Source of the DNA: a virus
Lineage: Duplodnaviria > Heunggongvirae > Uroviricota > Caudoviricetes
Virus record (IMG/VR): IMGVR_UViG_3300029417_000059
Length of the DNA stretch: 18,835 nucleotides
Strand: one strand, 5' to 3'
Part shown: positions 1 through 3,000 of the stretch, in pieces
Layout: every line of letters starts with the position of its first letter
Position numbering within the stretch: position 1 is the stretch's first letter
Position numbers: made by a program

Positions 1-3000
1 AAGAAGAACGGAAACACCTTAAACCGGAAAATTTTCATAAATAGCGAAAACCCGCGAGGTCGCCGCCCCGTAACCTGTCGGATCGCCGGAAAGGACCCAC
101 AAAATGATAATAATTATCATCTACATGTCACAACGTGCATCTACGCCATCAAACCACGTCAAATAATCAATTATGACGCAGGTATCGTATTAATTGATCT
201 GCATCAACTTAACGTAAAAACAACTTCAGACAATACAAATCAGCGACACTGAATACGGGGCAACCTCATGTCAACTAAGAACAGAACCCGCAGAACAACA
301 ACCCGCAACATCCGCTTTCCTAACCAAATGATTGAACAAATTAACATCGCTCTTGAGCAAAAAGGGTCTGGGAATTTCTCAGCCTGGGTCATTGAAGCCT
401 GCCGTCGGAGACTAACGTCAGAAAAGAGAGCATGTACATCAATCCAAAGTGATGATGAATAAACATCCCGGTTTCTTCCACCATCGCACCGGAAAAGCGA
501 CTATGAGGGTAACCCTGCGTCTGTCAGCACAGTAAAACCCGGTGTGCATCGTTTTTGATTATTCCCGCACACTCACGCAGAAGGAATTCCCCGTCGGGCT
601 ACGGTCATGGTTAATGCGGGAATACGGCGACGATACAGCGCAGCTAAAAGGGTAATGGACAGAAAGAGCGGTTTATTTCATTCCACAGGATTCTGAGTGC
701 CCCCCTCCTCCAATAGGCTGAGCATCCACCTATATAGTTTTAATTTTCATCAATCCATTTAACTATCGTTTAATTGTTGTCACATAGGATTCTGCCGTTT
801 TTAACAATGCAGGATAATAAGATGAAAAAAATGTTGTTTTCTGCCGCTCTGGCAATGCTTATTACAGGATGTGCTCAACAGACGTTTACTGTTGGAAACA
901 AACCGACAGCAGTAACACCAAAGGAAACCATCACCCATCACTTCTTCGTTTCGGGAATTGGACAGGAGAAAACTGTTGATGCAGCCAAAATTTGTGGCGG
1001 CGCAGAAAATGTTGTTAAAACAGAAACCCAGCAAACATTCGTAAATGGATTGCTCGGTTTTATTACTTTAGGCATTTATACTCCGCTGGAAGCGCGTGTC
1101 TATTGCTCACAATAATTGCATGAGTTGCCCATCGATATGGGCAGCTCTATCTGCACTGCTCATTAATATACTTCTGGGTTCCTTCCAGTTGTTTTTGCAT
1201 CGTGATCAGCCTCTCTCTGAGGGTGAAATAATCCCGTTCAGCGGTGTCTGCCAGTCGGGGGGAGGCTGCATTATCCACGCCGGAGGCGGTGGTGGCTTCA
1301 CGCACTGACTGACAGACTGCTTTGATGTGCAACCGACGACGACCAGCGGCAACATCATCACGCAGAGCATCATTTTCAGCTTTCGCATCAGCTAACTCCT
1401 TCGTGTATTTTGCATCGAGCGCAGCAACATCACGCTGACGCATCTGCATGTCAGTAATTGCCGCGTTCGCCAGCTTCAGTTCTCTGACATTTTTGTCGCG
1501 CTGGGCTTTGTAGGTAATGGCGTTATCACGGTAATGATTCAGCCCCAGACTAAGCGCACCACAGGCCACCAGCAGGGCAATGATGACCACGCACAGTACG
1601 CGGTTCATTTCACCACCAGCGTATCTGACCGATGAAATAACCGGAGGCCATAATCACAAACACCAGCCAGATAAGAATGAACTTCCAGGTGGATAATTTT
1701 TCAGCCATCACTCGAATCTCCCGAATCAGTTTGCTAAAATCAAACACACTTTCTCCTTTGACTTTTCCGGAGTCAGGAAACACAAAACCCCGCTTGGTGC
1801 CAACAAACGGGGTTTTTACTTTTATTCACTTACGTTTCGCCAGTTCGCAGGATTTCATGTTATCCGCCCGCGTGGCCATGCCTTATTTTTCAGCAAAATA
1901 TTCTGCTTATCTGTCGATTCCCCAGCACGCCAGCGCGCTCTCCTGGTCACGACGGGATACCTGACCATAACAGTTATTTGAGCGGATACGGCAGTCTCTG
2001 CCACCGTCCTTAATCCACCAGCGAATCGCCTCACACGCTCCCCTGCGATCACCTGCATTAATTCGTTTATAAAACGTCGACGGGAAACACTTACCGGGAC
2101 CAATGTTGTACGGACAGAATGACGCGATCCCCGCTTTCTGGGGTTCGCTCAATGGCACTTTGATGTTTTTCTCCACCCATGCCAGCGCCTTATCACGCTC
2201 AATGGCGTTAACCCGGTCGCATTTTTCCTTCGACAACTTCATGCCCGGAACGACAGGTTTGCCATCCACCAGGATGGCACCGCGGCAGATGGTCCAGATA
2301 CCCGCGCCATCACGGTATGCCGTGGTGTGGTTACCTTCCTTTTCATCCAGAAACTGGTCGAGAATGTCAGGCGCAGGCGCACCAGCGGCAATCAGCGCCA
2401 GAACGGCAGCCGACAGGCCGTATCTGATTTTGGTGTTCATGGATATTTATCAGGATTTATCGGTTTCTGAGCCCTGGATATGTTTATCAGTTCCAGCCTG
2501 TTGCCTCAGGCTGCTAACAGGTCAATACAATCATGAGGATTATTTATGGACAATAACACCATTTCTCTACAGGAGTTGCTCGACAGCATTTCCAGGCTTC
2601 GGGAAGACGTGAATACCCTTACCGTCGCCTTCTCATATCTGGCATTCTCAATTCCAAGGGAACAGATGCAATCAACGCTGGCATCAATCCAGTTTGAATC
2701 ATGCAATCCCAAATGGTCTCAGGAACAACAAGACTCTTTCAGGCGGCTTGCTGTATTACTGGATGAAAAATATGCTGGTAAAATTACCATTTCGGCGGAC
2801 TCTTCAGAGAACCCGTAATTATTCCCGGTAGTTTTCCTCTGTAGGTTATCAACACATCCTGCGCCTCTAAAATTACGGGGCGCTTTTCCGGCGACTGCTC
2901 ATCCCCTTCACATAACCCGGCAGCAACATCCAGGAAGACCTGTCTGATGCTCCTTCTGGCTGCTGCCTCATAAAACTCCAGCGCGGCACCTTCAACACGG

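What the first reader, a model, noticed from the sequence alone, without database searches (positions are those of the whole stretch)
2546..2818. Opposite-strand 90-aa ORF with strong RBS inserted within the lysis cassette
The lysis cassette is split: holin and YdfR-like gene, then a 340-bp gap, then endolysin. The gap encodes a 90-aa protein on the opposite strand (GAGGA at 8 nt from ATG), convergent with the YdfR-like gene and overlapping its 3' end. A gene antisense to the late transcript would be expressed only when late transcription is off, and could modulate lysis timing or be a lysogen-expressed moron. The endolysin itself lacks a recognisable SD.
Basis: seen in the sequence. Interest (0 to 1): 0.5.

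Follow-up and report, generated by a model that had tools for sequence, protein, structure and literature searches.

The report
Small opposite-strand moron in lysis cassette
The 90-codon reverse-strand reading frame between the prophage's YdfR gene and its endolysin is a real, selected gene for a small acidic helical protein of unknown function, carried on a ~316-bp extra segment that some related prophages lack.

Summary
The ORF at 2546-2818 (+), its GAGGA ribosome-binding site, the 343-bp gap and the 35-nt tail-to-tail overlap with ydfR are all present.

The ORF is a real gene:
- It is intact in all 18 distinct DNA variants I collected.
- dN/dS is 0.11-0.34.
- Variable sites by codon position are 40/31/70.
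- RefSeq annotates it as a hypothetical protein (WP_000369850.1). It matches PHROG 2411 and no Pfam family.

It lies on a ~316-bp, lower-GC segment (about 2485-2800) inserted at the ydfR stop codon. Related prophages show other states: ydfR overlapping or 42 nt from the endolysin start, or an unrelated 79-aa opposite-strand ORF in the same slot.

The family also occurs outside lysis cassettes:
- beside iha, where 23 nt of endolysin 5' end survive next to it;
- after an AIDA-type autotransporter;
- as a chromosomal gene at pyrC-dinI-X-bssS-solA in Serratia, Winslowiella, Chimaeribacter and Sodalis.

The protein is soluble and acidic, and is predicted to form three helices. It has no informative sequence or fold match.

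Best reading: an autonomous moron acting by protein binding in the host cell, not a lysis-timing factor. Promoter, expression pattern and biochemical function remain unshown. Interest is modest.

The parts
2546..2818 (+). 90-aa ORF (WP_000369850.1; PHROG 2411). The conserved core is about residues 8-77. The last ~12 residues are variable and low-confidence in the model.
2535..2539 (+). Shine-Dalgarno GAGGA, 6 nt before the ATG. (G/A)AGGA is retained in all divergent copies.
2501..2531 (+). Only sigma-70-like candidate upstream: TTGCCT-N19-TACAAT. It is weak, the spacer is too long, and the predicted start would fall within the SD. Unproven.
2485..2800 (.). Inserted segment of about 316 bp relative to the insert-free prophage L086, where 'aag' occupies this position. 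GC is 44-46%, against 52-58% in the endolysin gene. It supplies the last five ydfR codons and its stop (SPPKW*). The ORF's own stop lies in the flanking ydfR sequence.
2441..2484 (.). Conserved junction upstream of the endolysin start, shared with prophages that lack the insert, with the alternative-insert prophage, and with the iha-linked relic.
2784..3128 (-). YdfR family (DUF1327) gene. Its 3' end overlaps the ORF by 35 nt.
1907..2440 (-). Phage lysozyme with an N-terminal hydrophobic SAR-like segment and no recognisable SD.
3133..3348 (-). Class II (S21-type) holin.
1784..1816 (.). Strong hairpin flanked by A-run and T-run, so terminator-like in both directions, between the endolysin and Rz. 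On the + strand it would stop read-through from bor, so the ORF needs a promoter somewhere in 1817-2545.

Best explanation
The ORF is a real gene carried on a moron: a ~316-bp extra segment inserted at the ydfR stop codon of a lambdoid prophage, pointing against the Q-dependent late operon.

It encodes a 10-kDa, acidic (pI 4.5), soluble protein predicted to form three helices. This is the phage-borne branch of a small family restricted to Enterobacterales. The chromosomal members of that family sit between dinI and bssS.

Inferred mechanism:
- It is transcribed on its own, from a weak or factor-dependent promoter in 1817-2545, independently of late transcription.
- The protein acts in the cytoplasm by binding a host or phage partner, in the way small regulator or adaptor proteins do.
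- Its function does not depend on the lysis genes around it.
- The antisense orientation keeps it outside late-operon control. Convergent transcription across the ydfR 3' end would be a side effect.

Shown: coding status, purifying selection, insertion polymorphism, family distribution, and the fold class at moderate confidence.

Inferred: the promoter, expression in the lysogen, and the binding mode. The partner is unknown.
For: - Coding and selection: intact ORF with ATG and SD in 18 DNA variants; dN/dS 0.11-0.34; variable sites by codon position 40/31/70.
- Insertion: L086 has ydfR only 42 nt from the endolysin, with 'aag' where the window has 2485-2800. In K-12 Qin the two genes overlap as ATGA.
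- Same slot, other occupant: an unrelated 79-aa + strand ORF (phrog_21218) sits there in 102 genomes.
- Frequency: 1053 of 5426 complete E. coli genomes have the full gap.
- Composition: the insert is 44-46% GC against 52-58% for the endolysin gene.
- Independence from lysis genes: a ydfR-deleted variant, L094, keeps the ORF. The Citrobacter copy lies before a lambda-S-type holin and a CHAP endolysin. One copy lies beside iha and another after an AIDA autotransporter. Chromosomal copies lie at pyrC-dinI-X-bssS-solA in five loci.
- Homology between the phage and chromosomal branches: profile E-values from 5e-11 to 9e-4 against 1.84 billion proteins; PHROG 2411 against the Serratia member, E = 4.5e-10.
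- Protein properties: pI 4.5 and GRAVY -0.43; three helices at pLDDT 82.8.
- Need for its own promoter: a terminator-like hairpin at 1784-1816 would block + strand read-through from bor.
Against: - No canonical promoter. The best candidate has a 19-nt spacer and would place the transcription start inside the SD.
- No clear terminator after the ORF.
- No transcript or protein data, and no literature on the family.
- No informative sequence or fold match, so 'binds a partner' rests only on size, charge and helical fold.
- Frameshifted copies exist, so the gene is dispensable in some lysogens.
- Much of the purifying-selection signal could predate capture by phages or islands.
Confidence: 0.6

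Rival explanations
1. Lysis-timing or lysis-safety factor acting as a protein. The small protein would bind the pinholin, YdfR or the SAR endolysin and delay or license lysis.
For: It sits inside the lysis cassette, between the holin/YdfR genes and the endolysin, in about a fifth of complete E. coli genomes. A second, unrelated small ORF occupies the same slot in the same orientation.
Against: - It is on the opposite strand to the late operon, so it would not be co-expressed with its supposed targets.
- It has no membrane segment or signal peptide.
- It is retained without lysis genes beside iha, after an autotransporter, and at dinI-bssS in several genera.
- It is retained after ydfR deletion and alongside a different holin and endolysin type.
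Confidence: 0.1
2. The selected function lies at the RNA or transcription level. Convergent transcription from the insert would interfere with leaky late transcription, or produce an RNA antisense to ydfR and the holin gene. That would lower basal SAR-endolysin expression in the lysogen, and the protein would be secondary.
For: - Both alternative occupants of the slot point against the late operon.
- There is a 35-nt overlap with ydfR and no clear terminator after the ORF.
- The insertion separates the endolysin from ydfR. In K-12 the two genes overlap.
Against: - There is clear protein-level purifying selection and a conserved SD and ATG.
- The family is maintained where there is nothing to be antisense to.
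- No strong promoter is detectable.
Confidence: 0.12
3. Phage-phage or phage-defence conflict protein. It would be a small acidic inhibitor, or a superinfection-exclusion or anti-defence factor, expressed from the prophage.
For: Small, acidic, helical and moron-borne in a variable slot. Unrelated small proteins alternate at the same position, which is typical of accessory hot spots.
Against: - No PADLOC match.
- A conserved single-copy chromosomal ortholog in a housekeeping neighbourhood across several genera fits a host-physiology role better.
- No neighbouring defence genes were seen.
Confidence: 0.12
4. Functionless relic or annotation artefact. The ORF would be open by chance, or would be decaying.
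For: Frameshifted variants exist. No function, no promoter and no literature. Spurious ORFs of this size are common in the window.
Against: - The ORF is open in every divergent copy down to 57% identity.
- There is a strong excess of third-position changes, and dN/dS is 0.11-0.34.
- More than 200 clusters of 80-100 aa share a conserved motif pattern across Enterobacterales.
Confidence: 0.04

Closest known systems
Lambda bor (and lom): classical morons of the lambdoid late region
   Same: An extra gene inserted among late genes next to the lysis cassette. It is oriented against the late operon, is present in some relatives and absent in others, and has a different base composition. From general knowledge of lambda, bor is expressed from the prophage. 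The window carries a bor/iss homolog at about 822-1115 (+), also opposite to the late genes.
   Different: Bor is an outer-membrane lipoprotein with a known serum-resistance phenotype. This protein is cytoplasmic and of unknown function. It sits inside the cassette, between ydfR and the endolysin, rather than after Rz. Neither a promoter nor lysogen expression has been shown for it.
PHROG 2411 / RefSeq WP_000369850.1 family ('Ybl58' in some records)
   Same: Full-length match, E = 1e-58. Identical protein in RefSeq.
   Different: The database entries carry no function. The family is not in Pfam or NCBIfam. Its link to the chromosomal dinI-bssS gene of Serratia, Erwiniaceae and Sodalis is not recorded in any source I could search.
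phrog_21218 ORF (WP_001168526.1), the alternative occupant of the same slot
   Same: Small (79 aa), mildly acidic, on the opposite strand, at the same ydfR-endolysin junction within about 10 nt, and overlapping the ydfR stop.
   Different: No detectable homology: BLASTP finds nothing and hhalign gives E = 0.13. It is rarer, at 102 genomes.
DinI and BssS, the small proteins flanking the chromosomal family members
   Same: About 80-90 aa stand-alone small proteins at the same locus. From general knowledge, DinI-like genes are also often carried by lambdoid prophages.
   Different: No sequence relation. The chromosomal family member lies after the dinI terminator, and no LexA box was found upstream of it. 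The functional link is association only.
AroQ chorismate mutase / generic three-helix proteins

Membership tests
Phage moron (extra transcription unit in a conserved gene array) | Present in some closely related phages and precisely absent in others | tested here: met
   L086 has no insert, with 'aag' in place of 2485-2800. K-12 Qin has ydfR and rrrQ overlapping. The full gap is present in 1053 of 5426 genomes.
Phage moron (extra transcription unit in a conserved gene array) | Base composition differs from the flanking genes | tested here: met
   GC is 44-46% across 2400-2900, against 52-58% in the endolysin gene.
Phage moron (extra transcription unit in a conserved gene array) | Own promoter | tested here: inconclusive
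   No site passes the 16-18 nt spacer scan. The best candidate is TTGCCT-N19-TACAAT. Read-through from bor is unlikely because of the hairpin at 1784-1816.
Phage moron (extra transcription unit in a conserved gene array) | Own terminator | tested here: inconclusive
   Only a weak GCGCC...GGCGC-TTTT element lies inside ydfR, and it is not part of the minimum-energy fold.
Phage moron (extra transcription unit in a conserved gene array) | Expressed from the repressed prophage | not testable with these tools
   Needs RNA-seq, Ribo-seq or proteomics of a lysogen.
PHROG 2411 | Significant full-length match to the family profile | tested here: met
   E = 1.1e-58, residues 1-90 against profile positions 1-90.
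Antiholin / lysis regulator (e.g. S107, T4 RI, P1 LydB) | Membrane or periplasmic location (TMD or signal sequence), or co-expression with the holin in the late operon | tested here: not met
   GRAVY is -0.43 and the model shows three amphipathic helices with no hydrophobic span. The gene is on the opposite strand to the late operon.
Antiholin / lysis regulator (e.g. S107, T4 RI, P1 LydB) | Obligate linkage to lysis genes | tested here: not met
   Found beside iha, after an autotransporter, and at the chromosomal dinI-bssS locus.
Non-coding cis-antisense regulator | No protein-level constraint; function carried by the RNA overlap | tested here: not met
   dN/dS is 0.11-0.34 with a conserved ATG and SD. 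No Rfam match. An additional RNA-level effect is not excluded.
Known anti-phage defence proteins (PADLOC) | Match to a defence-system profile | tested here: not met
   No hit for the window protein.
AroQ chorismate mutase | Conserved catalytic Arg/Lys/Glu/Gln residues and a significant fold match | tested here: not met
Transposable or site-specific insertion element | Terminal inverted repeats or a target-site duplication at the insert ends | tested here: not met
   No meaningful direct or inverted repeats at about 2485 and 2800.

The most novel reading that the evidence does not exclude
The phage gene is a captured, diverged copy of an ancestral Enterobacterales small protein whose home is the SOS/stress locus between dinI and bssS. 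Escherichia would have lost the chromosomal copy and regained the function only through prophages and islands. The protein would tune a host stress pathway, for example RecA/SOS or biofilm signalling, and so influence prophage induction or lysogen fitness. The ydfR-endolysin junction would be a dedicated hot spot where antisense small-protein morons are repeatedly installed.
Probability: 0.12. Interest if true: 0.6.

Novelty: new member of a known kind. Interest (0 to 1): 0.3.

Why it matters
About one in five complete E. coli genomes carries this gene inside a prophage lysis cassette. These include CFT073 and the B/BL21 lineage. A diverged copy also travels with the virulence gene iha. It is a very common, selected protein with no known function and no Pfam family.

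Three results make it experimentally approachable:
- It is an insertion, and natural insert-free and alternative-insert prophages exist for comparison.
- It has chromosomal relatives in a fixed dinI-bssS neighbourhood.
- It is not tied to the lysis genes.

Nothing here points to a new kind of mechanism, so the value lies in annotation and prophage-accessory biology.

Tried and rejected
- **Function by sequence.** Pfam, NCBIfam and PADLOC gave nothing for the window protein. Pfam also gave nothing for 55 family members. The only NCBIfam line, Mip at E = 0.037 over 15 residues, is noise.
- **Function by structure.**
  - A profile search against PDB sequences gave E > 1.
  - Foldseek against PDB and BFVD found no match at E <= 0.001; the best hits were E = 1.7 (PDB) and 0.42 (BFVD).
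  - AFDB50 was not available.
- **Homology between the two slot occupants.** BLASTP found nothing and hhalign gave E = 0.13. Rejected.
- **Antisense frame (68-aa ORF at 2506-2712, - strand) as the real gene.** It has a low dN/dS only because it shares wobble positions. Stops at varying positions in divergent copies rule it out.
- **Gap as a decayed C-terminal extension of a longer YdfR.** Longer YdfR-like PHROGs exist, but the - strand frames are closed and the + ORF is conserved.
- **Known RNA in the gap.** Rfam gave no credible hit.
- **LexA box upstream of the phage or chromosomal copies.** Only CTGT half-sites were found. The only conserved upstream element is the dinI terminator.
- **Transposon-like ends.** None.
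- **Remnant of the family in the K-12 dinI-bssS spacer.** None.
- **Counting insert-free junctions genome-wide.** The search joins pieces across inserts, so the count is unusable.
- **Literature.** Nothing was found for ybl58, the WP accessions, PHROG 2411 or ydfR with lysis terms. DUF1327 gave one paper, which I did not read. A Stx-phage lysis-cassette survey does not mention this gene.
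Full report
**1. The observation**

The window is part of a lambdoid prophage whose late genes run on the - strand. Reading downstream along that strand from the antiterminator gene, the annotated features are: a methyltransferase, tRNA genes, a SASA esterase, then the lysis genes. The lysis genes are:
- an S21-type class II holin at 3133-3348;
- YdfR/DUF1327 at 2784-3128;
- a phage lysozyme at 1907-2440, with a hydrophobic N-terminal SAR-like segment;
- Rz/Rz1 at 1147-1608 and 1206-1388.

The gap between the endolysin ATG and the ydfR stop is 2441-2783, which is 343 nt. 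On the + strand, an ATG at 2546 opens a 90-codon frame ending at 2818. GAGGA lies at 2535-2539. The frame overlaps the ydfR 3' end by 35 nt. No SD precedes the endolysin ATG.

**2. It is a gene**

Length alone is not evidence: a 169-aa frame antisense to the lysozyme gene is also open. The evidence comes from related sequences.

I collected 96 loci, which gave 18 distinct DNA variants of the ORF. They come from IMG/VR contigs, E. coli genomes, E. ruysiae, Citrobacter and read assemblies.
- Every variant keeps the ATG, a (G/A)AGGA and an open frame of 83-90 codons. This holds down to 57-60% protein identity.
- Over codons 1-79, the part that does not overlap ydfR, Nei-Gojobori dN/dS is 0.11-0.34, with dS up to about 3.
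- Variable sites by codon position are 40/31/70.
- The antisense frame that shares third positions also gives a low ratio (0.16-0.43), as expected for that geometry. It is interrupted by stops at different places in divergent copies, so it is not the coding frame.

RefSeq annotates the ORF as WP_000369850.1, 'hypothetical protein'. It matches PHROG 2411 over its full length, E = 1e-58. It has no Pfam or NCBIfam family.

**3. It is an insertion**

The ydfR-endolysin junction exists in several states in related prophages.
- In one E. coli prophage (L086), ydfR ends 42 nt from the endolysin ATG. Aligned with the window, L086 reads gatatgtt-aag-tcttcagagaacc where the window reads gatatgtt-[2485-2800]-tcttcagagaacc.
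- The extra segment is therefore about 316 bp. It replaces the last codon and stop of ydfR (T* becomes SPPKW*).
- The segment carries the SD and 85 of the ORF's 90 codons. The ORF's last five codons and its stop lie in the flanking ydfR sequence.
- In K-12 Qin, the ydfR stop and the rrrQ start overlap as ATGA. This arrangement could allow translational coupling. It shows that the missing endolysin SD is a property of this endolysin lineage and not a consequence of the insertion.
- In another prophage (L087), the same junction, within about 10 nt, holds a different 79-aa ORF on the + strand (phrog_21218). It is present in 102 genomes. I could not show homology between the two occupants: hhalign gives E = 0.13.

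The insert is 44-46% GC, against 52-58% for the endolysin gene. It has no terminal repeats. The full gap is present in 1053 of 5426 complete E. coli genomes, including CFT073 and E. coli B.

**4. The gene is not tied to the lysis genes**

- One variant has lost most of ydfR but keeps the ORF between holin and endolysin.
- In Citrobacter, the ORF converges on a 238-aa protein with a YdfR-like C-terminus. It precedes a lambda-S-type holin and a CHAP endolysin.
- A 57%-identical copy lies divergent from the adhesin/siderophore-receptor gene iha, among IS elements. This copy is WP_000370415.1, named 'Ybl58' in some records, and is indexed in more than 5000 blocks of the assembly collection.
- The similarity of that iha-linked copy to the window runs from 2418 to 2763. 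That stretch includes 23 nt of the endolysin 5' end and the junction. The iha-linked copy is therefore a relic of this lysis-cassette module.
- Another copy follows an AIDA-type autotransporter gene.

**5. The wider family**

A profile of the Escherichia and Citrobacter proteins found only 20 representative clusters among 1.84 billion proteins. A second search with a broader profile listed 229 clusters of 80-100 aa. All named sources but two (records labelled Pseudomonas) are Enterobacterales, including Serratia, Sodalis, Pantoea, Erwinia, Winslowiella and Mixta.

In five loci examined, the gene is chromosomal and lies in the same place, pyrC-dinI-X-bssS-solA. These are Serratia marcescens, Winslowiella, Chimaeribacter, a Sodalis species and one further assembly. 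A sixth relative, from Sodalis ligni, lies elsewhere in the chromosome.

E. coli K-12 has the same neighbourhood, but the dinI-bssS spacer holds no such gene and no remnant of one. Only the dinI terminator is conserved upstream of X, and I found no LexA box.

The link between the phage and chromosomal branches is statistically sound:
- E = 5e-11 to 9e-4 from the phage-only profile;
- PHROG 2411 against the Serratia protein, E = 4.5e-10.

**6. The protein**

It is 10.2 kDa, with pI 4.5 and GRAVY -0.43. With a 55-sequence alignment, AlphaFold2 gives three helices (8-34, 38-52, 59-76) at mean pLDDT 82.8 and a disordered tail. The conserved positions are mostly hydrophobic, plus E51, N54 and Q62.

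**7. Expression signals**

A strong hairpin flanked by A-run and T-run at 1784-1816 would end + strand transcripts coming from bor. A promoter for the ORF must therefore lie in 1817-2545. The only sigma-70-like candidate there is TTGCCT-N19-TACAAT at 2501-2531. It has a poor spacer, and its predicted start falls within the SD. A similarly placed -10-like hexamer occurs in other copies (TATAAT in the iha-linked one), but these sequences are related, so that is weak support. No convincing terminator follows the ORF. Expression is unresolved.

**8. Interpretation**

What is shown:
- a selected protein-coding gene;
- carried on an inserted, compositionally distinct segment;
- oriented against the late operon;
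- belonging to a small Enterobacterales family with chromosomal members beside dinI.

What I infer is a moron of the same kind as lambda bor. It would be transcribed on its own terms and make a soluble small protein that works by binding a partner in the host cell.

'Modulates lysis timing' is disfavoured by the protein's properties and by its life outside lysis cassettes. An added RNA-level effect of convergent transcription on ydfR or the endolysin cannot be excluded.

The gene is already annotated, but as a hypothetical protein. The kind of element is well known, and the function remains open. Interest is modest.

Noticed in passing
L084/L085 2386-2789 (E. coli iha locus); window 2418-2763: The region upstream of the virulence gene iha contains a relic of a prophage lysis cassette: 23 nt of endolysin 5' end, the ydfR-endolysin junction, and an intact 57%-identical copy of the ORF transcribed divergently from iha. 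iha has the same orientation the endolysin had, which suggests it replaced late-operon cargo in a prophage.
   Followed up: partly
window 1609-1906: A second gap of 298 nt lies in the lysis cassette, between the endolysin stop and the Rz start. It holds a strong bidirectional terminator-like hairpin (1784-1816). It also holds a small - strand ORF with a hydrophobic segment (within 1610-1783; ...[32 protein letters not shown]) that ends next to the Rz start.
   Followed up: no
L087 2635-2874 (E. coli JA0265 prophage): An unrelated 79-aa opposite-strand ORF (WP_001168526.1, phrog_21218) occupies the same ydfR-endolysin slot in 102 complete genomes. About 26 nt of its upstream region (cccgtcagtggtRggacactggcgct, an 8-bp hairpin) is shared with the Citrobacter copy of the 90-aa family. 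This implies that upstream segments and ORFs have been shuffled as modules.
   Followed up: partly
L098 5555-5558 (K-12 Qin): In K-12 the ydfR stop and the rrrQ (endolysin) start overlap as ATGA, an arrangement that could allow translational coupling. The same SD-less endolysin start sequence (ataaatatcYATG) is retained in prophages where the two genes are 42 or 343 nt apart.
   Followed up: partly
window 5574-5783 and 6061-6251 (-): There are two tandem copies of the sRNA family STnc100 (Rfam, 165 and 136 bits). They lie between the tRNA cluster (Arg, Arg, Ile at 6327-6576) and the SASA esterase gene on the late-operon strand.
   Followed up: no
window 3498-5351 (-): A 617-aa SASA-family carbohydrate esterase gene lies immediately upstream of the holin gene, in the late-operon position where toxin or other cargo genes lie in many lambdoid prophages.
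   Followed up: no
window 10944-11269 (-) and 17765-17816 (+): A hokD/sok type I toxin-antitoxin pair and a DicF sRNA followed by dicB are present, as in the Qin-type prophage.
   Followed up: no
L099, L101-L103, L113-L115 (about 5001-5280 or 3001-3270): In Serratia, Winslowiella, Chimaeribacter and Sodalis, an unannotated-function gene of about 90 aa lies between dinI and bssS. E. coli K-12 lacks it at that locus. It has no Pfam family.
   Followed up: partly
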